Below are positions 10,492 to 63,285 of a stretch of 64,000 nt of DNA, piece by piece. The stretch covers positions 128,813 to 192,812 of the forward strand of contig CAVZVG010000003.1 in the NCBI GenBank assembly GCA_963778665.1, read 5' to 3'. Made by a program: the position numbers and the translations under genes. Origin of the DNA: an uncultured Gammaproteobacteria bacterium. Its GTDB lineage: Bacteria; Pseudomonadota; Gammaproteobacteria; JBBQDK01. A model generated the notes under the pieces. It did not search any database. It had not been told where the DNA came from and saw only the letters and a list, made by a program, of their open reading frames with translations. Position 1 is the stretch's first letter. Each line of letters begins with the position of its first letter.

Positions 10492-11878
10492 TCAACCGAG
10501 CTTGTTGTCGGCGATGTGGTAATGCGGGTCTTCCTGCACATTCAGTTCGACCATGTCCTTGGCCTTGTCCAGCACTTCCAGGCAATCCGGGCTGAGGTGG
10601 CGCAAGTGCAGGCGCTTGCCGAGCAGCTGGTAGCGGGTTGCCAGCATGTCGATCGCTTCGACCGCCGAATGATCCATCACCTTGGCGCGGCGGAATTCGA
10701 CCACCACTTCATCCGGGTCGTCGAACGGGCGTGAACAAAGACTGGAAGCCGGCGGTCGAGGCGAAGAACAGCGAGCCTTCCAGTTCGTAGACCTTCCAGC
10801 CCTTGCCGTCGGTATAGGTCGTCACGTCGATCTGCTTGGCGTGCTGCCAGGCGAACACCAGCGCGGCAATCACCACGCCGAGCACCACCGCGATGGCAAG
10901 ATCGGTGAAGACGGTCACTATCGGTCACCGCCACCACGATGATGGCATCGGAACGGGGCATCTTGCCCAGGACCTGCAGGCTGCCCCATTCGAAGGTCTT
11001 TTCCGACACCACGAACATCACGCCGATCAGTGCGGCCAGCGGAATCCGCTCGATCAGGCTGGAACCGAACAGGATGAAGGACAGCAGGAACAGCGCCATG
11101 GCGATGCCGGACAGGCGATGGGTGGCGCCGTTGTTCACGTTGATCATGCTCTGGCCGATCATGGCGCAACCGCCCATGCCGCCGAACAAGCCGGTGACCA
11201 CGTTGGCGGCGCCTTGCGCCAGGCACTCCCGATTCGGCTTGCCGCGGGTGTCGGTCATTTCGTCGATCAGATTCAGTGTCAGCAGCGATTCGGTCAGGCC
11301 GATGGTCGCCAGGATCAGCGCGTAGGGAAACACGATCTGCAGCGTTGCCCAGTTCAGCGGCACATCCGGCATGTGGAACATCGGCAGTCCGCCCTCAATC
11401 GAAGCCGAGGTCGCCGACCGTCTTGGTGTCGATGCCGAGCCAGGCTCACCAGCAGCCGACACCGCCAGAATGCCGCCAGCGTGGCCGAGGCATCGCCTTG
11501 GTGAGCCTGGGCAGCAGATAGATGATCGCCATCGTCACCGCGATCAGGCCCAGCATGGTGCACAGCGGCATGCCCTGCATCCAGTGCTGGTGCCATCGGC
11601 AGCCGGTGTCTTGAAGTGCGCCAATTGCGCCAGGAAGATCACGATCGCCAGGCCGTTGACGAAGCCCAGCATCACCGGATACGGCACCATGCGGATGAAC
11701 TTGCCCAGCTTGGCAGCGCGCCGAACAGCATTTGCAGCAGGCCCATCAGCACCACGGTGGCGAACAGATACTCCACGCCGTGCTGCACCACCAGCGACAC
11801 CATGACCACCGCAAGCGAGCCGGTGGCGCCGGAAATCATGCCGGGCCGACCGCCGAAGGTCGCGGTGATCAAGGCCAT
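10492..11878 (-). pseudogene. SulP/DauA-family anion transporter with STAS domain, disrupted by at least 5 frameshifts
   Basis: Fragments in three frames: STAS C-terminus (VVEFRRAKVMDHSAVEAIDML), STAS N-part (ELEGSLFFASTAGFQSLF), and TM core (ESLLTLNLIDEMTDTRGKPNRECLAQGAANVVTGLFGGMGGCAMIGQS..., [44 protein letters not shown]), collinear with E. coli DauA. The N-terminal ~80 codons (up to ~12110) are not recoverable. Confidence 0.6.
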
Positions 11879-12274
11879 GATGAACGCGGCATACAGGCCG
11901 GTCAGTGGCTAGACATGGGCCACCAGTGCAAAGGCGATGGCTTCGGGCACCATCGCCAGGGCGACGGTGAGACCGCTCAATACGTTGTTCTGATCTCTTG
12001 CGGGGTGAGTGCGGACAAGTGACTTCTCCAGATTCTGAATACGCAGTGCTGCAAGAGTCCGGCCGCAAGGCGGGGAATGGCAGAGTACGAAAAGTGGACA
12101 GGGTATGACGCGGGCGTTCAGGCAGTGTGTATCGGGGAACGAATAACTCTAAACAGGTGCTGCGTAAGGGGGCGTCACATCGGCCTGTCGGGCCGCCCGA
12201 AATCGATGACATCAGCCCTGAAGTATATCATGTCGGCCTGCCCGGCGGTCTGAAATCGACCTGCGTTTCCCCGC

Positions 12275-50518: not shown

Positions 50519-50914
50519 GTGAGAAAAGCCATGCCTACAGCAACGCTGTTTTCGATCATCGAATCGCCGGGCCATCCGAATTTTTCGGAGCTCTACCAGA
50601 CCCTGGGCTTGAACGAACTGAAGTTCAATTCGATGCGTCACGCCTTGCAGGCGCTCAAGACACAACAGCCGGACTTCATCGTCGCGGAATTCTTCTACGG
50701 TTATGGCAACAACTACGCGGGGGTGAATATCAGCAATCTGGATGTGCTGCTATACAGCCTCCAGAAATACGCGCCCGCGGCCCGGGTCGTCGTCATGGTG
50801 GAAAAGGATCAGCGTCAGTACGTGGACAAGCTCAACGAGATCCTGCCGCTGCATGCGGTCGTGCAGCATCCGGTGCGGGTGTCCGAGTTGGAGCAGTGTC
50901 TGTCCGGCAGTTGA
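50519..50914 (+). CDS. hypothetical protein with receiver (REC)-like fold but no conserved phospho-acceptor Asp
   Basis: 131 aa. Pattern ...QQPDFIVAEFFYG...VVVMVEKD resembles a REC domain with the acceptor Asp replaced by Glu. Weak Shine-Dalgarno. Confidence 0.35.
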   Translation: MRKAMPTATLFSIIESPGHPNFSELYQTLGLNELKFNSMRHALQALKTQQPDFIVAEFFYGYGNNYAGVNISNLDVLLYSLQKYAPAARVVVMVEKDQRQYVDKLNEILPLHAVVQHPVRVSELEQCLSGS

Positions 50915-50992: not shown

Positions 50993-52123
50993 TCACTGCA
51001 TCGGCAGTTGCATGAGCGACTGGTGGCTGTGCAGGAACCAGCGGTCGAGAACGACGTGGCGCGTGAACCAGGGCTTGCGTAGCAGCCGCGTGCCGAGGTA
51101 GTTGCGCGCGGCTGTCGCGACCGGCTGCGGCTTCGCGGTGCTCGCCGGGCCGAAACGCCTGGTAAGACTGTCCTGATAGGCGGCCAGTCGGGCGGTGCCG
51201 TAATCGCCTTCGGCGGCGAGTATCGTGGCGGCGGCCAGCAGCCCTGACTCGATCGCCGGACGGATGCCCTCACCGCTTTGCGCATAGGCCAGTCCGGCGG
51301 CATCGCCGATCAACAACACCCCATCGTCGATCTGCTTGCGTCTGCTGTGACCGTAGAGCAGATAGGCGTGACCGTGCAGCGTATCGGGACTGTCGGCGGG
51401 AATCCGGTCCGTTGTCTTGAGCCAGTCGAGGAAGGCGGCGCTGTGTTCGGCCAGTCGCTGCGGGTCTTCGCGGCCCAGTCCGATGTTCAGGTAATCGCCT
51501 TTGTGAAACACCCAGCCATAGCCTTTCAGGTCGGCGCAGAAATACAACTCGGGCCGATCCGGCGCCGCATTGCAGCGGCGCTGTTGCGCAGCGCTCATTT
51601 TGAACTCGATTTCCCGGGCCGTGACGGCCAGTTCGCGGCGGCCGACATCGGCGCCGAGATAACGCGCTACCGGGCAGAAGTGTCCGCCGGCACCGATCAG
51701 CAGTGCGGCCTCGATGCGCCGGTTGATCAGCCAGCCGTCGTCCCGGCGTTCTATCGACTGCAGCGTTTCGCCGAGGGCCAGGCGCGCGCCGCTGCGTTGC
51801 AGCAGATAATCGTCGAATTCGCAGCGGCGAATGCCGTAACTGACGATCCGCGCATAGTCGACGTCGTGCGGCACGGCGCCGATCAGACCGAGACGGAAGC
51901 CCGTGATCGGTTGCAGCACGCGATCGCGGGCGTACTCCGCGCGGTCGACCTGCAGTTCGTCCAGCACCGGCGGCGTGATCCAGCCGGCGCACACCTTGTC
52001 ACGCGGGAAGCGGCTCTTGTCGAGCACCAGCACATCCAGTCCCGCCTGACGCAATACCCGCGCGCAACTGGCACCCGCCGGACCGCCGCCGACGATCAGT
52101 ACATCGCAACGTTCCGTGCTCAT
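50993..52123 (-). CDS. geranylgeranyl-reductase-family FAD-dependent oxidoreductase
   Basis: N-terminal dinucleotide fold DVLIVGGGPAGAS. GGR-family motif LLIGDAAGLAYAQSGEGIRPAIESG. ATG overlaps the cfa stop (ATGA). Confidence 0.7.
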   Translation of the reverse strand: MSTERCDVLIVGGGPAGASCARVLRQAGLDVLVLDKSRFPRDKVCAGWITPPVLDELQVDRAEYARDRVLQPITGFRLGLIGAVPHDVDYARIVSYGIRRCEFDDYLLQRSGARLALGETLQSIERRDDGWLINRRIEAALLIGAGGHFCPVARYLGADVGRRELAVTAREIEFKMSAAQQRRCNAAPDRPELYFCADLKGYGWVFHKGDYLNIGLGREDPQRLAEHSAAFLDWLKTTDRIPADSPDTLHGHAYLLYGHSRRKQIDDGVLLIGDAAGLAYAQSGEGIRPAIESGLLAAATILAAEGDYGTARLAAYQDSLTRRFGPASTAKPQPVATAARNYLGTRLLRKPWFTRHVVLDRWFLHSHQSLMQLPMQ

Positions 52124-53374
52124 GGCTGCTCCCGATACAGATCGGCGCGTGTCCACGAAATCCTGTTGTTGCCGTGCCGGTTGAACAACACCTGGAACAA
52201 TTGCATCTGACCGCTGGTGAACGCCGCCTGCGAACCGGCCAGATACAGGCGCCAGACGCGCACGAAGGTGGTCATCGAACATCTCCTCGACACGCGCGGC
52301 GTTGGCGTCGAAGCGCGCCAGCCAATGTTGCAGCGTCTTGGCGTAATGCAGCCGCAGGTTTTCGACGTCGAGAACGGAGAATCCCAGCGGTTCGAACAGT
52401 TCCATCATTTCGCTGAGGCTGGGCGGATAGGCGCCCGGAAAGATGCGCCGCGTGATCCAGGAATTCATGGGACCCGGGCAGTCGCGGCCGATGCTGTGGA
52501 TCAGGCCGCGGCCGTCCTCGGTGAGTGCCGCGTCGATGACCTTGCCGAGCGTCGCATAGTTGTCCACGCCGACATGTTCCAGCATGCCCACCGAGACGAA
52601 GGCATCGAACTTGCCTTTGATGGCGCGGTAGTCGTCTTCGACGAATTCGATGCGCTCGTGCAGACGCTCGCGGCGCGCCCAGGCGCGGGCATAGGCAATC
52701 TGTTCCCGCGAGATGTTGTAGGACGTGACGCTGACGCCGTAATGTTTCGCCATGTGCATGGCCAAGGCGCCCCAGCCCGAGCCCGCCTCGACAACCCGCT
52801 CGCCCGGCCGCAGCCGAAGTTTGCGGCAGACGTGATCGAGCTTGGCGATCTGCGCCTCTTCCAGGCTCGCTTCGGGCGTGGGGAAATACGCGCAGGTATA
52901 GACCATGCGTTCATCGAGCCAGAGACGATAGAATTCATTGCCGAGATCGTAATGATGATGGATGTTGTCGCGCGCGCGGTCCGTGTTGTTGTTCGGGCGT
53001 CGCGACAGGGCATGCAGGACGCGCCGCCGCAGGCCGGCCGCCAGCAGATGACGATAGACGGTGTCGAGAAAGGCGGGCAGTTCGCCCTCGATTTCGATGC
53101 GTCCGGCGCTGTACAGTTCGCCGAACGCATACTCGGGATTGGCAACCAGCTTTTGCAGACTGCGCCGATCGTGTATGACCATGCGGGCGACCGATGCCGC
53201 ACCGGTCGGTGCAAACACCGCGCCGTCCCACAGCGCTATCGAGATGGGCGGCTGACCGACACCGTCCAGCAACCGCTTCACCAGCCATCGGTCGGGCAGG
53301 CGCGCTTTGCCTTGTGCGGCCATCCTGCTTGCCGTGACAGTGTCATTTGCAACGTGTAAGTCCTGTTTTTGCAT
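52120..53374 (-). CDS. cfa: cyclopropane-fatty-acyl-phospholipid synthase family SAM-dependent methyltransferase, with an apparent 1-nt frameshift near 52268
   Basis: SAM motif VVEAGSGWGALAMHMA. The C-terminus in the +1 frame reads FVRVWRLYLAGSQAAFTSGQMQLFQVLFNR, the canonical Cfa end. In the assembled frame it reads through into the downstream gene, giving the 793-aa track ORF. Confidence 0.7.
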
Positions 53375-53846: not shown

Positions 53847-55232
53847 CTACGCGGGGACTCCTCGCGGGGACGCGCCGGCGGTCGGCAGGCTGATGATGAC
53901 GCTCAGTCCCCCGGCGGGTTCGTTTTGTGCCGTGATCCCGCCGCCATGCAAACCGATGGCGCGTTCGGCAATCGCCAGACCCAGGCCATAACCGCCGCTG
54001 TGACGATCGCGCGCCTCGCCGACGCGTACGAACGGCTCGAACATCCGCGGCAGCATCTGCTCCGGAACACCGGGACCGTGATCGGTGACGCGGATCAGTA
54101 TGTGCCCATCCGTCCGGGTTGCAGTGATCGCCACGGCGCTGCCCGCGACAGTGTAGTGGATGGCGTTGCGCACCACATTTTCCAGTGCGCTGTGCAGCAG
54201 CTTCGCATTGCCCAGCACGCTCAATGCGGCCGGCTGCCGCAGTTGGACTTCGCAGTGGCGCGCGGCGGCCTCCAGTGTGGCATCTTCCGTCACGGTCGTG
54301 AGCACCTCGGACAGGTTGACGGTCTCCAGCGGCATGTCCTGCGCGCCGGCTTCCAGGCGTGCCAACGACAACAACTGGCCGATCAGTTCGTTCAGGCGTT
54401 CCGCCTCGCCCTCGATGCGATCCAGTTCCGGCTGGTCGGCGGCGCCGGCGCGCTGGCGCGCCAGTCCCAACGCGGCTTGCAGGCGCGCCAGCGGCGAACG
54501 CAGTTCGTGCGAGACATCGCGCAGCAATTGCTTGTGCGACAGCATCAGGTCGTTGAGCCGTTCCGCCATATGATCGAAGGCCAGCGCCAGATCGACGATC
54601 TCGTCGCGACGTCCGCCCAGCGACGCGCCGACGCGCTGGCTGAGGTCACCGGCCGCGTAGGCCTCGGCGGCGCGGCGCAGGCGTTCGATCGGTGCGGTGA
54701 GATAACGCGCCAGCAGAAAGCACACCAGTGCGCTGATCAACGTGCCCAGCAGCAGCGGTACGGCGATGACGCGCGGCCGACCCAGCAGGCGGGCCAGCGT
54801 GACGCCCTGAAAATCCGGCACGATGCGATAACGGCTGCCGTCGTCGAGCGTGATCCATGACTCGGGTCGCATGCGCCGCCGCATTTCGCGGGGTCGTTCG
54901 GCGCGTTCGTCATGGCGGCGCAGACGTTCCAGTGCTTGAGCGGGCACCTCCCTGCCCAGTACATCGTTGCCTTCGGCATCCAGCACCAACAGCGGCACCG
55001 CGTCCTGCTCATCCACTTCATGCGCCCAGGCTTTTAATCCATCCAGGCCCTTCTGTTGAGCGATTGCGCGGGCCTGCGCGATACGATATTCGTAGCGCAC
55101 GCGCGTTGCGCCGGCATCCTGCTGGTCGCGCAGCCGATCCAGATAATGCGAAGTGAACAGCAGGCTGGTGGCCGCGAACAGCACCAGCGCGGTCCAGAAT
55201 GAAACGAATATCTTCCAGTACAGACGTTGCAT
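53847..55232 (-). CDS. sensor histidine kinase (CpxA/EnvZ-like: 2 TM, HAMP, HisKA, HATPase)
   Basis: H-box DVSHELRSPLARL; N, G1 and G2 boxes. ATG giving MQRLYWKIF. Overlaps or abuts the response-regulator gene. Confidence 0.75.
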   Translation of the reverse strand: MQRLYWKIFVSFWTALVLFAATSLLFTSHYLDRLRDQQDAGATRVRYEYRIAQARAIAQQKGLDGLKAWAHEVDEQDAVPLLVLDAEGNDVLGREVPAQALERLRRHDERAERPREMRRRMRPESWITLDDGSRYRIVPDFQGVTLARLLGRPRVIAVPLLLGTLISALVCFLLARYLTAPIERLRRAAEAYAAGDLSQRVGASLGGRRDEIVDLALAFDHMAERLNDLMLSHKQLLRDVSHELRSPLARLQAALGLARQRAGAADQPELDRIEGEAERLNELIGQLLSLARLEAGAQDMPLETVNLSEVLTTVTEDATLEAAARHCEVQLRQPAALSVLGNAKLLHSALENVVRNAIHYTVAGSAVAITATRTDGHILIRVTDHGPGVPEQMLPRMFEPFVRVGEARDRHSGGYGLGLAIAERAIGLHGGGITAQNEPAGGLSVIISLPTAGASPRGVPA

Positions 55233-55243
55233 GCGCTGCCGCC

Positions 55244-55924
55244 TCAGGACGTGACGAACTGGTAACCGACGCCGCGCACGGTCTTGATACGCTCCTCGCC
55301 ATCGGGTCGGGCGCCGAGTTTGCGGCGCAGGCTGCTGACGTGCATGTCCAGGCTGCGGTCGTAACGCGTCAGTTTGCGACCCAGCGCCTGGTCCGACAAT
55401 TCCGTTTTGGCTACCACCTGTCCCGCATTGCGCAGCAGCACTTCCAAAACGCTGTACTCGGTGCTGGTCATGTCGACAGTCCGTTCCCCGCAACGCACGC
55501 TGCGCGAGCCGGTATGCATCTCCAGATCGTCGAAGCGCAGCGTCTCCGTCACCGGCGAAGGCGACTCGGCGCGACGCAGCACGGCGCGGATGCGCGCCAC
55601 CAGCACGCGCGGATTGCAGGGCTTGGCCAGATAATCGTCGGCGCCCAGTTCCAGGCCGATGATGCTGTCGACATCCTCGTCGCGCGCGGTGAGCATCAGC
55701 ACCGGCAGCTGCGTGCGGGCGCGCAATTCGCGCAGCACGTCGAAGCCATTCTTCTTCGGCATCATCACATCGAGCACCAGCAGATCGAAGCGGCCGCTGC
55801 CGGCGCGCGCCAGCGCAGCCTCGCCGTCGTGCACCGCCTCCACCGTGAAGCCCTCGGCGCTGAGGTATTGCGTGAGCATCTCACACAGTTCGACGTCATC
55901 GTCCGCCAGGAGGATGCCGGCCAT
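55244..55924 (-). CDS. OmpR-family response regulator (CpxR-like)
   Basis: REC domain (LLADDD...DLLVLDVMMPKKNG) plus winged-helix (TVRGVGYQF). Start at MAGILLADDD. Confidence 0.8.
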   Translation of the reverse strand: MAGILLADDDVELCEMLTQYLSAEGFTVEAVHDGEAALARAGSGRFDLLVLDVMMPKKNGFDVLRELRARTQLPVLMLTARDEDVDSIIGLELGADDYLAKPCNPRVLVARIRAVLRRAESPSPVTETLRFDDLEMHTGSRSVRCGERTVDMTSTEYSVLEVLLRNAGQVVAKTELSDQALGRKLTRYDRSLDMHVSSLRRKLGARPDGEERIKTVRGVGYQFVTS

Positions 55925-56012
55925 CACGTTGTTCCATACAGATCGGGTGTGCCTTTCATGCCTCACAGTCTGCCACAGCGCGGGCACGGACAGACAGCCA
56001 TGGATCATCGCA

Positions 56013-56027
56013 TTTACATAGATTTAC
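56013..56027. promoter_or_regulatory. candidate CpxR-type box GTAAA-N5-GTAAA in the divergent intergenic region
   Basis: TTTACatagaTTTAC on the plus strand equals GTAAAtctatGTAAA on the minus strand. About 90 bp from the regulator start and ~95 bp from the CpxP-like start. Confidence 0.45.
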
Positions 56028-56120: not shown

Positions 56121-56598
56121 ATGAAACACACTACCACTACTGTCATCATCAGCGCCGTACTGGCGGGCAGCCTGGCCGCCGCGGTGCCCGCATTCGCGCG
56201 CGGTATGGGTCCGGGCGACTGTGGCCATGACCGGGGCATGACCGGCATGCGCGGCGACCCCGAGGCGCGCATCGAGCATATGACGCGCAGATTGAATCTG
56301 GATACCCAGCAACGCGACGCGGTGCGTGCCATTGCCGACAAGCATCGCGACCGAAATGCGCACGCTGCACGACCGGATGGCGGATAATCGCCAACAGTTG
56401 CGGGCGCTCACCGCGCAAGGCGGCGATGTCGATCAAGCCAAGCTGCGTACCCTGGCGGATGCACAAGGCAAGGACATGGCGGACATGATCATGCTGCGCA
56501 CGCAAATGCAGTCCGAGATCGCCAAGGTGCTGACGCCGGCGCAACGGGAGCAGATGCAGCAGCAGCGCCGCAGTGGATTCGGTCGGAAGGGCAGCTGA
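56121..56598 (+). CDS. periplasmic CpxP/Spy-family protein, with an apparent 1-nt frameshift near 56355
   Basis: Signal peptide. Two LTxxQ-type motifs (LNLDTQQRDAV and LTPAQREQM). The two track ORFs 56067..56387 and 56326..56598 join if one base is removed in ...KHR(D)TEMRTL. Confidence 0.65.
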
Positions 56599-62790: not shown

Positions 62791-63014
62791 AAATCGGCCG
62801 GATCGAGGTCCATGACCTGTTTCGGGGCGGACTATTGCCCGGATCGGGGGGTGATCGAGGGGAAAAAGAACTGGATATCGCGCGGAGTTGGTGTATATTG
62901 GCGGCGTTGGAGTGCACTTCTTGTGGTCGGTTCGGTATTCAATCCCGTAATTTTTCTTCCAAGAATGAACTGCAAACCAACGCATTTCTACTTTTATTAT
63001 TACGAGGTATTACC

Positions 63015-63218
63015 GTGACGACAGGAACAGTAAAGTGGTTTAACGATGCCAAAGGCTTCGGCTTCATTACCCCGCAGGACGGCAGCAAGGATGTATTCGT
63101 TCATCACTCCGCCATCCAGGGCAGCGGCTTCAAGAGCCTGGCCGAAGGCCAGCAGGTAACGTTTGATGTCGAACAGGGCCCGAAAGGTCCGTCAGCCGTA
63201 AACGTAAAACCGGCCTGA
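63015..63218 (+). CDS. cspA: cold-shock protein (CspA family)
   Basis: [15 protein letters not shown] (RNP1) and VFVHH (RNP2). GTG start with GAGGT Shine-Dalgarno. The 225-aa track ORF 62541..63218 is an upstream extension. Confidence 0.85.
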
Positions 63219-63252
63219 ACCCACCGCTCTGCGCAAGCAGAATTGGGTACTG

Positions 63253-63285
63253 AAGACCCCGTCGCAAGGCGGGGTCTTTTTTTGT
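63253..63285 (+). terminator. rho-independent terminator after cspA
   Basis: GACCCCG..CGGGGTC hairpin followed by a T7 run. Confidence 0.6.

What the first reader, a model, noticed from the sequence alone, without database searches (positions are those of the whole stretch)
50993..53374. The 793-aa methyltransferase-reductase fusion ORF is a frameshift artefact; real organisation is cfa-family methyltransferase translationally coupled to a GGR-family flavoprotein
Shifting +1 near 52268 restores the canonical Cfa C-terminus (FVRVWRLYLAGSQAAFTSGQMQLFQVLFNR...), ending in a TGA that overlaps the ATG of the downstream FAD-dependent geranylgeranyl-reductase-family gene (ATGA). A lipid methylene-transferase coupled to an FAD reductase suggests methylenation followed by reduction, i.e. 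methyl-branched rather than cyclopropane acyl chains, as in 10-methyl fatty-acid synthesis. This functional reading is speculative.
Basis: inference. Interest (0 to 1): 0.6.

Follow-up and report, generated by a model that had tools for sequence, protein, structure and literature searches.

The report
Frameshifted tmpBA 10-methyl fatty-acid operon
The 793-residue "fusion" ORF is two ordinary overlapping genes, a Cfa-like lipid methyltransferase and a geranylgeranyl-reductase-like flavoprotein, joined by one extra base; they match the published tmpBA operon for 10-methyl-branched fatty acids, so the locus is a new member of a known kind.

Summary
ORF 50993..53374 (-) exists only because of one extra base at 52272-52274 (minus-strand context TTCGATGACCACC, not a homopolymer).

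Four contigs from close relatives lack that base. They carry a 416/417-aa Cfa-family gene whose TGA overlaps the ATG/GTG of a 376-378-aa reductase gene (ATGA/GTGA). Removing the base extends the Pfam CMAS match from 248/273 to 273/273 profile positions. GC3 in the 150-nt stretch is 0.82 in the shifted frame and 0.45 in the fused frame.

The functional guess is also right, but it is already published. The pair is 53-57% identical, full length and in the same order, to TmpB/TmpA of Marinobacter hydrocarbonoclasticus and Thiohalospira halophila (Blitzblau 2021, PMC7791843). Expressing those tmpBA operons in E. coli gave 10-methylene fatty acids. TmpA is the presumed GGR-like methylene reductase, but its activity has never been shown.

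The Cfa-like gene sits directly upstream of the reductase in 76 of 77 informative genome loci from several phyla.

I cannot tell whether the extra base is a sequencing error or a real mutation. At least two other genes in the window are also frameshifted, which favours an indel-prone assembly. Interest is low to moderate.

The parts
52120..53374 (-). tmpB: Cfa/CMAS-family SAM-dependent lipid methyltransferase (417 aa once one base is removed). It has an N-terminal DUF7884 domain and a CMAS domain. The reading frame is broken by a 1-nt insertion at 52272-52274.
   Evidence: Pfam CMAS 281.2 bits, profile 3-273/273 after correction. 57% identical to Thiohalospira TmpB and 57% (blastp) / 53% (alignment) to Marinobacter TmpB, against 30-36% to E. 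coli Cfa, BfaB and Desulfobacter TmpB. Bicarbonate-site residues are conserved: C161, E266, H293, I295, Y344. Best PDB match is 7qos, Aquifex CFA synthase, E 1e-73.
52272..52274 (-). Site of the single extra base. The minus strand reads TTCGATGACCACC; relatives read TTCGATG-CAACG or TTCGACA-CCACC. Removing A or G restores FDATFV or FDTTFV, as in the relatives.
   Evidence: DNA alignments with L085, L002, L003 and L001. tblastn of the L001 Cfa switches frame between 52274 and 52272.
52124..52271 (-). Native C-terminus of TmpB (F-V-R-V-W-R-L-Y-L-A-G-S...Q-L-F-Q-V-L-F...). In the 793-aa ORF it is read out of frame as an artificial 'linker' (HLRARLAPVSGRF...SVSGAA).
   Evidence: Three-frame translation. 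GC3 0.82 in the shifted frame and 0.45 in the fused frame. 84% identical to the L001 C-terminus in the shifted frame. It aligns to the end of the Aquifex CFA synthase chain (7qos).
52120..52123 (-). ATGA overlap of the tmpB stop (TGA) and the tmpA start (ATG). A GGGAG Shine-Dalgarno-like motif lies at 52133..52129, 5 nt upstream.
   Evidence: Sequence read directly. The same ATGA/GTGA overlap occurs in L001, L002, L003 and L085. Over 70-odd loci the spacing is mostly -26 to +17 nt, with -4 the commonest class.
50993..52123 (-). tmpA: FAD-dependent flavoprotein of the geranylgeranyl-reductase family (376 aa), the presumed 10-methylene-acyl reductase. The gene is intact.
   Evidence: NCBIfam TIGR02032 GG-red-SF 155.6 bits against a cut-off of 158.8. 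56% identical to Thiohalospira TmpA and 53% to Marinobacter TmpA, full length. Best PDB match is 3oz2, an archaeal digeranylgeranylglycerophospholipid reductase, with C45 aligned to its Cys47 and YGWVFHKGDYLNIGLG aligned to the GGR motif. No similarity to BfaA.

Best explanation
The locus is a tmpB-tmpA (ten-methyl palmitate) operon, two translationally coupled genes that a single extra nucleotide has merged into one ORF.

Proposed mechanism:
- TmpB is a Cfa-like SAM-dependent methyltransferase. It adds a carbon to the cis double bond of phospholipid-bound monounsaturated acyl chains (preferentially delta-9 C14-C16 in the tested orthologues) and releases a 10-methylene (exo-methylene) product instead of closing a cyclopropane ring. 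This was shown for orthologues and is inferred here.
- TmpA is a geranylgeranyl-reductase-type FAD enzyme. It is then thought to reduce the exo-methylene to a methyl group, giving saturated mid-chain methyl-branched lipids such as 10-methyl-16:0. This step is inferred and has not been shown for any family member.

The extra base at 52272-52274 puts the first 367 codons of tmpB in frame with tmpA. The 793-aa ORF therefore lacks the native last ~50 residues of the methyltransferase fold and is not a designed fusion. Because at least two other genes in the window carry similar frameshifts, the extra base is more likely an assembly or sequencing indel (about 60%) than a real inactivating mutation (about 40%).
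For: Frame break:
- One extra base relative to four contigs from close relatives.
- The CMAS profile match is completed by removing it.
- GC3 switches frame exactly over the 150-nt stretch.
- tblastn of the relative's Cfa changes frame at 52272-52274.

Two-gene architecture:
- Relatives L001 and L002 have cfa 416/417 aa plus reductase 378/376 aa overlapping by 4 nt, in the same synteny.
- All 120 best reductase homologues are stand-alone.
- cfa lies directly upstream of the reductase in 76 of 77 informative loci, from Pseudomonadota, Acidobacteriota, Planctomycetota and Nitrospirota. Spacing is mostly -26 to +17 nt.

Identity with tmpBA:
- 53-57% full-length identity to Marinobacter and Thiohalospira TmpB and TmpA, about the level at which those two TmpB proteins match each other (57%).
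- Same B-then-A gene order.
- Four of five tmpBA operons made 10-methylene-palmitate in E. coli. The Marinobacter and Thiohalospira operons methylated C14-C18 delta-9/10/11 chains (PMC7791843).

GGR character of TmpA.

Other frameshifts in the window: the cpxP-like gene at ~56348 and a SulP gene at 10.5-12 kb.
Against: - TmpA gave no 10-methyl product in E. coli or yeast, so the reduction step is a hypothesis (PMC7791843).
- 53-57% identity does not guarantee the same regiochemistry or product.
- The fatty-acid profile of the source organism is unknown, and the organism itself is unidentified.
- The reads cannot be inspected, so error and real mutation cannot be separated. The indel is not in a homopolymer, which is atypical for some error models.
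- The GGR subfamily score is just below NCBIfam's cut-off (155.6 vs 158.8).
Confidence: 0.72

Rival explanations
1. The extra base is a real mutation. In this strain tmpB is a recent pseudogene: the methyltransferase lacks its last helix and strand. TmpA may still be made, either as the tail of the read-through protein or from its own ATG and Shine-Dalgarno motif. The organism would then no longer make 10-methyl-branched lipids.
For: The indel is not in a homopolymer. Other broken genes in the window could equally be real pseudogenes, notably the SulP gene split over at least 4 frames. The shifted-frame sequence is still 84% identical to relatives and keeps high GC3, so any inactivation would be recent.
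Against: All four contigs from close relatives have the intact frame. Two single-base insertions within 4 kb in otherwise well-conserved genes (tmpB and the cpxP-like gene) look like assembly noise. There is no decay of the downstream frame.
Confidence: 0.3
2. The 793-aa ORF is a genuine bifunctional TmpB-TmpA fusion enzyme, by analogy with the engineered BfaA-B fusion that improved conversion in yeast.
For: An engineered BfaA-B fusion works better than the separate enzymes (PMC7791843). A few two-domain proteins exist in the database, and one (P0127, 824 aa, A-B order) has both domains intact.
Against: - The junction is the conserved Cfa C-terminus read out of frame, and the CMAS match is truncated at 248/273.
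- GC3 shows that the stretch evolved in the other frame.
- No close relative has the fusion.
- Four of the six two-domain database proteins (P0121, P0124, P0126, P0135) show the same out-of-frame junction, so they are the same kind of accident.
Confidence: 0.02
3. Programmed +1 ribosomal frameshifting at 52272-52274 produces full-length TmpB from the sequence as given.
For: None beyond the existence of the frame break.
Against: There is no slippery or stop-codon context at the site (GAT GAC CAC CTT). The extra base is absent from all relatives, so the feature is not conserved.
Confidence: 0.01
4. The conserved pair does something other than 10-methyl fatty-acid synthesis. Examples: TmpA reduces or isomerises a different methylated olefin (isoprenoid or quinone side chain), or the end product is a methyl-branched unsaturated or otherwise modified lipid.
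For: TmpA was inactive in every heterologous test. Databases annotate homologues as 'menaquinone-9 beta-reductase' or 'geranylgeranyl reductase family'. MenJ and BchP/ChlP models give partial matches.
Against: The organisms used to define tmpBA all contain 10-methyl-16:0, and the negative-control species lack both the lipid and the operon (Table S2). The near-obligatory linkage with an acyl-chain methyltransferase that yields an exo-methylene product gives TmpA an obvious substrate. All isoprenoid/quinone reductase equivalog models score far below their cut-offs.
Confidence: 0.1

Closest known systems
tmpBA (ten-methyl palmitate) operon of Marinobacter hydrocarbonoclasticus (MARHY3375/3376) and Thiohalospira halophila (Blitzblau et al. 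2021, PMC7791843)
   Same: Same two protein families, same B-then-A order and tight coupling. Full-length identity is 53-57% for both proteins, about the level at which the two reference TmpB proteins match each other. The Cfa bicarbonate-site residues are conserved.
   Different: In the window tmpB carries a 1-nt insertion that merges it with tmpA. The host is an unidentified ~61% GC bacterium. The operon sits next to a CpxRA/CpxP-like envelope-stress system. No lipid data exist for this organism.
Desulfobacter/Desulfobacula-type tmpBA (same paper)
   Same: Same logic: a Cfa-like methyltransferase plus a GGR-like flavoprotein. The hosts contain 10-methyl-16:0.
   Different: Only 32-35% identical to the window proteins. 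That TmpB is closer to E. coli Cfa (52%), and that TmpA is shorter (315-323 aa). It is a separate subtype.
bfaAB (10-methylstearate / tuberculostearic acid) of actinomycetes (Machida 2017, PMC5660069; Blitzblau 2021)
   Same: The same two-step chemistry is proposed: SAM-dependent methylenation of a delta-9 acyl chain, then flavin-dependent reduction. BfaB is a Cfa homologue (30-36% identical to the window TmpB).
   Different: BfaA is an unrelated FAD oxidoreductase. blastp of the window reductase against BfaA finds nothing below E = 2. The gene order is A-B. BfaA activity with NADPH has been demonstrated, whereas TmpA activity has not.
Cyclopropane fatty-acyl phospholipid synthase (E. coli Cfa; PDB 6bqc, 7qos, 5z9o)
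   Same: Same fold, same SAM and bicarbonate sites, and the same substrate class, unsaturated phospholipid acyl chains.
   Different: 34-35% identity. All NCBIfam Cfa equivalog models score far below their cut-offs (333 vs 600; 283 vs 400). The orthologues' product is an exo-methylene, not a cyclopropane. The gene is obligately paired with a reductase.
Archaeal digeranylgeranylglycerophospholipid reductase (GGR; PDB 3oz2)
   Same: Full-length alignment, FAD GxGxxG motif, the conserved Cys aligned with GGR Cys47, and a YxWxF...GxG motif. Both act, or are presumed to act, on a methyl-substituted C=C in a membrane lipid chain.
   Different: Distant (E 1e-11). The presumed substrate is an exo-methylene acyl chain rather than an isoprenoid. 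The electron donor is unknown.

Membership tests
tmpBA operon (Blitzblau 2021) | Cfa/CMAS-family methyltransferase with the Cfa bicarbonate-site residues | tested here: met
   CMAS 281 bits after correction. C161, E266, H293, I295 and Y344 align with E. coli C139, E239, H266, I268 and Y317.
tmpBA operon (Blitzblau 2021) | GGR-like flavoprotein gene immediately downstream of the methyltransferase (B-then-A order) | tested here: met
   ATGA overlap at 52120-52123. TIGR02032 155.6 bits. Same order as the M. hydrocarbonoclasticus operon.
tmpBA operon (Blitzblau 2021) | Closer in sequence to experimentally tested TmpB/TmpA than to Cfa, BfaB or BfaA | tested here: met
   53-57% to the Marinobacter/Thiohalospira pair against 30-36% to E. 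coli Cfa, BfaB and Desulfobacter TmpB. No hit to BfaA. This is a pairwise comparison only; no full phylogeny was built.
tmpBA operon (Blitzblau 2021) | Intact tmpB reading frame | tested here: not met
   One extra base at 52272-52274 in the sequence as given. Whether it exists in the organism cannot be tested here.
tmpBA operon (Blitzblau 2021) | Host contains 10-methyl-16:0, or the operon yields 10-methylene acyl chains | not testable with these tools
   Needs FAME/GC-MS. The only indirect hint is that Steroidobacter agaridevorans, which carries the pair (L028), reports 'summed feature 9' (iso-17:1w9c and/or 10-methyl 16:0) at 7.6%.
tmpBA operon (Blitzblau 2021) | TmpA reduces the 10-methylene intermediate | not testable with these tools
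   Never shown for any TmpA; inactive in E. coli and yeast.
Geranylgeranyl reductase family (NCBIfam TIGR02032) | Score at or above the curated cut-off | tested here: not met
   155.6 bits against a cut-off of 158.8, matching profile 2-297/297. It is a near miss and best treated as a peripheral member or sister group.
Geranylgeranyl reductase family (NCBIfam TIGR02032) | FAD dinucleotide-binding motif, conserved Cys near the flavin, and the YxWxFP...GxG motif (the roles of these features are from my own knowledge of the GGR structures) | tested here: met
   VGGGPAG is present. C45 aligns with Cys47 of 3oz2. YGWVFHKGDYLNIGLG aligns with YIWVFPKGEGMANVGIG, with P replaced by H. C45 and the motif residues are invariant in 27 homologues.
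Bona fide cyclopropane fatty-acid synthase (NCBIfam equivalogs NF053839, NF040703, NF008686) | Score at or above the equivalog cut-off | tested here: not met
   333.5 vs 600, 299.5 vs 650 and 282.9 vs 400.
bfaAB (actinomycete 10-methylstearate operon) | BfaA-type FAD oxidoreductase partner | tested here: not met
   blastp of the window reductase against M. smegmatis and T. curvata BfaA gives no hit below E = 2.

The most novel reading that the evidence does not exclude
tmpBA is not a curiosity of Desulfobacter and a few gammaproteobacteria. It is a widespread, self-contained two-gene membrane-remodelling module, with 561 relatives in the species-level genome set, in Gallionellaceae, Steroidobacteraceae, Acidiferrobacterales, Zetaproteobacteria, Acidobacteriota, Planctomycetota and Nitrospirota, and often next to envelope- or heat-stress genes.

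If TmpA really is an oxygen-tolerant GGR-type lipid methylene reductase using an unidentified electron donor, then much of the environmental 10-methyl-branched PLFA conventionally assigned to actinomycetes or Desulfobacter could come from these lineages.
Probability: 0.3. Interest if true: 0.5.

Novelty: new member of a known kind. Interest (0 to 1): 0.25.

Why it matters
For annotation, the 793-aa ORF should be split into tmpB (frameshifted, or corrected after read inspection) and tmpA, and should not be reported as a bifunctional enzyme. The ATGA-overlap architecture in GC-rich genomes turns single-base indels into long 'fusion' ORFs; four of the six two-domain database proteins retrieved here show the same out-of-frame junction.

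For biology, the locus adds a member to a pathway whose second step is still undemonstrated. The survey made here shows that the gene pair is far more widely distributed than the original paper's five organisms. That bears on the use of 10-methyl fatty acids as taxonomic biomarkers and gives many candidate TmpA enzymes to test. None of this is surprising to a lipid biochemist who knows the 2021 paper.

Tried and rejected
- Exact-sequence look-ups of the 793-aa ORF and of the neighbouring response regulator found nothing on record, so the source genome and its reads or alternative assemblies could not be identified.
- The promoter/terminator scan around the operon gave nothing above shuffle expectation.
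- There are no tRNA genes, and only a cspA thermoregulator from Rfam, so the window holds no taxonomic marker.
- I looked for a conserved third gene, such as an electron donor for TmpA, by clustering all ORFs of 83 loci. Nothing is shared by more than 15 loci. The commonest neighbours are a response regulator (15 loci) and a small class-I methyltransferase (12 loci).
- I looked for a CpxR box upstream of tmpB and found none. The only perfect box lies between the cpxR-like and cpxP-like genes.
- Genuine fusion was considered and rejected.
- Programmed frameshifting was considered and rejected, because the extra base is not conserved and there is no slippery site.
- Homology to BfaA was considered and rejected.
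- Literature searches for 10-methyl fatty acids in Gallionella, Sulfuricella, Thiogranum, Thiohalophilus and Sulfurifustis returned no usable paper among the 15 listed.
- I did not build a proper phylogeny or predict structures. Pairwise identities and profile matches were judged sufficient.
Full report
**Observation.** The minus-strand ORF 50993..53374 (793 aa) exists as described. Pfam finds a CMAS (Cfa/mycolic-acid cyclopropane synthase) domain in its first half and FAD/NAD(P) Rossmann signatures from residue ~420. NCBIfam places the second half in the geranylgeranyl-reductase (GGR) family, TIGR02032, at 155.6 bits against a cut-off of 158.8.

In the fused ORF the CMAS match stops at profile position 248 of 273. 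The three-frame translation shows the missing end, FVRVWRLYLAGSQAAFTSGQMQLFQVLFNRHGNNRISWTRADLYREQP*, in the neighbouring frame. That frame ends in a TGA (52122..52120) overlapping the ATG (52123..52121) of the reductase. A GGGAG motif lies 5 nt upstream of that ATG. With one base removed, the CMAS match becomes 3-273/273 and rises from 247.7 to 281.2 bits.

**Is the frame break real in evolutionary terms?** No. The closest relatives in public assemblies have reductases 86-90% identical to the window's. All have two separate genes:
- L001: cfa 416 aa plus reductase 378 aa.
- L002: cfa 417 aa plus reductase 376 aa.
- L003 and L085: partial contigs with the same junction.

The two genes overlap by 4 nt (ATGA or GTGA). 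L001, the longest contig, shows the same synteny as the window (response regulator, histidine kinase, cfa, reductase, 130-aa ORF, L,D-transpeptidase); the shorter L002 shows the part it covers.

DNA alignments show exactly one extra base in the window. It reads TTCGATGACCACC where the relatives read TTCGATG-CAACG or TTCGACA-CCACC, which places the extra base at 52272-52274. Deleting A or G restores FDATFV or FDTTFV, as in the relatives. tblastn of the L001 Cfa switches frame at the same point.

Codon-position composition agrees independently. GC3 between the indel and the tmpA ATG is 0.45 in the fused frame and 0.82 in the shifted frame, while the flanks have 0.77 and 0.79 in the fused frame.

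**Sequencing error or real mutation?** This cannot be settled without reads. Exact-sequence look-ups for the ORF and for a neighbouring protein found no record of the source genome.

The window does contain other broken genes:
- The CpxP/Spy-like LTXXQ gene (56121..56589, +) has a single-base insertion at ~56348 relative to L001, again outside a homopolymer.
- A SulP-family permease at ~10.5-12.0 kb (-) is split over at least four frames.

Three broken genes in 64 kb, two of them by single-base insertions in otherwise 82-88% conserved genes within 4 kb, favours an indel-prone assembly. I put this at about 60:40 over genuine pseudogenes.

A search with the whole 793-aa sequence found six two-domain proteins among the 120 best hits listed. 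Four of them (P0121, P0124, P0126, P0135) visibly carry the same kind of out-of-frame junction. Overlapping genes in GC-rich DNA, where alternative frames stay open, seem prone to yield such 'fusions'.

**What the pair is.** A genome-collection scan with an alignment of reductase homologues confirmed 561 relatives. Of the best 80 loci, 77 have enough upstream DNA to judge, and 76 of those carry a Cfa-like gene directly upstream. The exception is L010, and L025 has a ~380-nt gap.

The stop-to-start spacing is mostly between -26 and +17 nt, with recurrent -4, -14 and -22 overlaps. The hosts include Gallionella, Sulfuricella, Steroidobacter/Peristeroidobacter, Acidiferrobacterales, Thiohalophilus, Zetaproteobacteria, Bryobacterales and other Acidobacteriota, Planctomycetota and Nitrospirota. 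No third gene is conserved across loci.

**The function is already in the literature.** Blitzblau et al. 2021 (PMC7791843) described two routes to 10-methyl fatty acids.
- The actinomycete route is bfaAB. BfaB, a Cfa homologue, makes 10-methylene acyl chains. BfaA, an FAD oxidoreductase, reduces them with NADPH.
- The second route is the tmp (ten-methyl palmitate) operon of Desulfobacter, Desulfobacula, Marinobacter hydrocarbonoclasticus and Thiohalospira halophila. [quoted passage not shown]

Four of five tmpBA operons produced 10-methylene-palmitate in E. coli. The Marinobacter and Thiohalospira operons accepted C14-C18 chains with delta-9, -10 or -11 double bonds. None produced the saturated 10-methyl product, so TmpA's activity remains hypothetical.

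Using the sequences in that paper's Additional file 3, I compared the window proteins:

| Window protein | Compared with | Identity |
|---|---|---|
| Corrected methyltransferase | Thiohalospira TmpB | 57% (blastp and alignment) |
| Corrected methyltransferase | Marinobacter TmpB | 57% (blastp), 53% (alignment) |
| Corrected methyltransferase | E. coli Cfa, BfaB, Desulfobacter-type TmpB | 30-36% |
| Reductase | Thiohalospira TmpA | 56% |
| Reductase | Marinobacter TmpA | 53% |
| Reductase | Desulfobacter-type TmpA | 33-34% |
| Reductase | BfaA | no detectable similarity |

The two reference TmpB proteins are themselves 57% identical to each other, so the window protein is about as close to each as they are to one another.

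The five residues that bind the catalytic bicarbonate in E. coli Cfa are conserved (window C161, E266, H293, I295, Y344), and all lie upstream of the frame break.

The nearest solved structures are:
- Methyltransferase: Aquifex CFA synthase 7qos, E 1e-73. The corrected C-terminus aligns to the end of the chain (residue 378 of 400).
- Reductase: Thermoplasma digeranylgeranylglycerophospholipid reductase 3oz2, E 1e-11, full length. Window C45 aligns with its Cys47, and YGWVFHKGDYLNIGLG aligns with the GGR signature.

**Mechanism.**
- Inferred, and shown for no family member: TmpA uses FAD to reduce that 1,1-disubstituted olefin. The substrate is chemically close to the methyl-substituted double bonds that GGRs reduce. 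The product would be a saturated mid-chain methyl-branched chain such as 10-methyl-16:0.
- The electron donor is unknown. No conserved partner gene was found.

There is a weak organismal correlate. Steroidobacter agaridevorans SA29-B, which carries the pair (L028), reports 7.6% 'summed feature 9' (iso-17:1w9c and/or 10-methyl-16:0). This is ambiguous by nature.

**Consequence of the frame break if it is real.** The read-through protein would lack the last ~50 native residues of the methyltransferase domain, which include the conserved WRLYL...QLFQVLF segment. It would very probably be inactive as a methyltransferase. tmpA keeps its own Shine-Dalgarno motif and ATG. A designed fusion and programmed frameshifting are both rejected, because no relative has the extra base, the junction is out-of-frame coding sequence, and there is no slippery site.

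**Verdict.** The thing itself is a further member of the already described tmpBA operon, carrying a probably artefactual single-base insertion. Its interest lies mainly in correct annotation, in the breadth of the family's distribution shown here, and in the still-open biochemistry of TmpA.

Noticed in passing
window 56121..56589 (+), indel at ~56348: The CpxP/Spy-like LTXXQ periplasmic protein gene is also frameshifted. Residues 1-78 of the L001 homologue align in frame +3 and residues 80-157 in frame +1. The cause is a 1-nt insertion (CATCG[C]GACCGA vs CACCG-GGCCGA), again not in a homopolymer.
   Followed up: yes
window ~10492..12000 (-): A SulP-family sulfate permease is fragmented over at least 4-5 ORFs in different frames. 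The Pfam Sulfate_transp match of the largest piece covers only profile 220-379/380. This is either a decayed pseudogene or a stretch of poor assembly.
   Followed up: partly
window 53847..56027: Directly upstream of tmpB lies a CpxRA-like two-component system (histidine kinase 53847..55232 and response regulator 55244..55924, both on the minus strand). A perfect CpxR-box consensus, GTAAATCTATGTAAA, sits at 56013..56027 in the divergent region towards the cpxP-like gene. No such box lies upstream of tmpB. The arrangement is conserved in L001 and L002, and 15 of 83 loci have a similar response regulator upstream.
   Followed up: partly
P0022 context; L006 (genome locus): In Nitrosomonadales/Gallionellaceae relatives, tmpBA is embedded among heat-shock and proteostasis genes (HSP20, GroEL, DegP-like protease, CBS, DnaK, DnaJ). 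This hints at stress-linked membrane remodelling.
   Followed up: no
L086:3001-5475 (P0127, GCA_966190075.1): An 824-aa protein with a TmpA-like domain at the N-terminus and a complete TmpB-like domain, native C-terminus included, at the C-terminus, next to a CDP-alcohol phosphatidyltransferase gene. It may be a genuine natural A-B fusion, mirroring the engineered BfaA-B fusion. It is a single record and has not been checked in relatives.
   Followed up: partly
L062:2764-3944: The tmpB of a Bryobacterales MAG also aligns in two different frames, so it is probably frameshifted. This is another example of the same kind of break.
   Followed up: no
window 62877..63282 (+): Rfam cspA thermoregulator (RF01766), 119.6 bits against a gathering score of 78. 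It was the only Rfam hit in the window. No tRNA genes were found.
   Followed up: no
L005:1939-2619 and 11 other loci: In 12 loci a small (~220-aa) class-I SAM methyltransferase (Methyltransf_11/25) lies just upstream of tmpB. Its role is unknown.
   Followed up: no
window 50531..50914 (+): A 127-130-aa ORF convergent with tmpA, 92% identical to its L001 counterpart, has no Pfam match.
   Followed up: no
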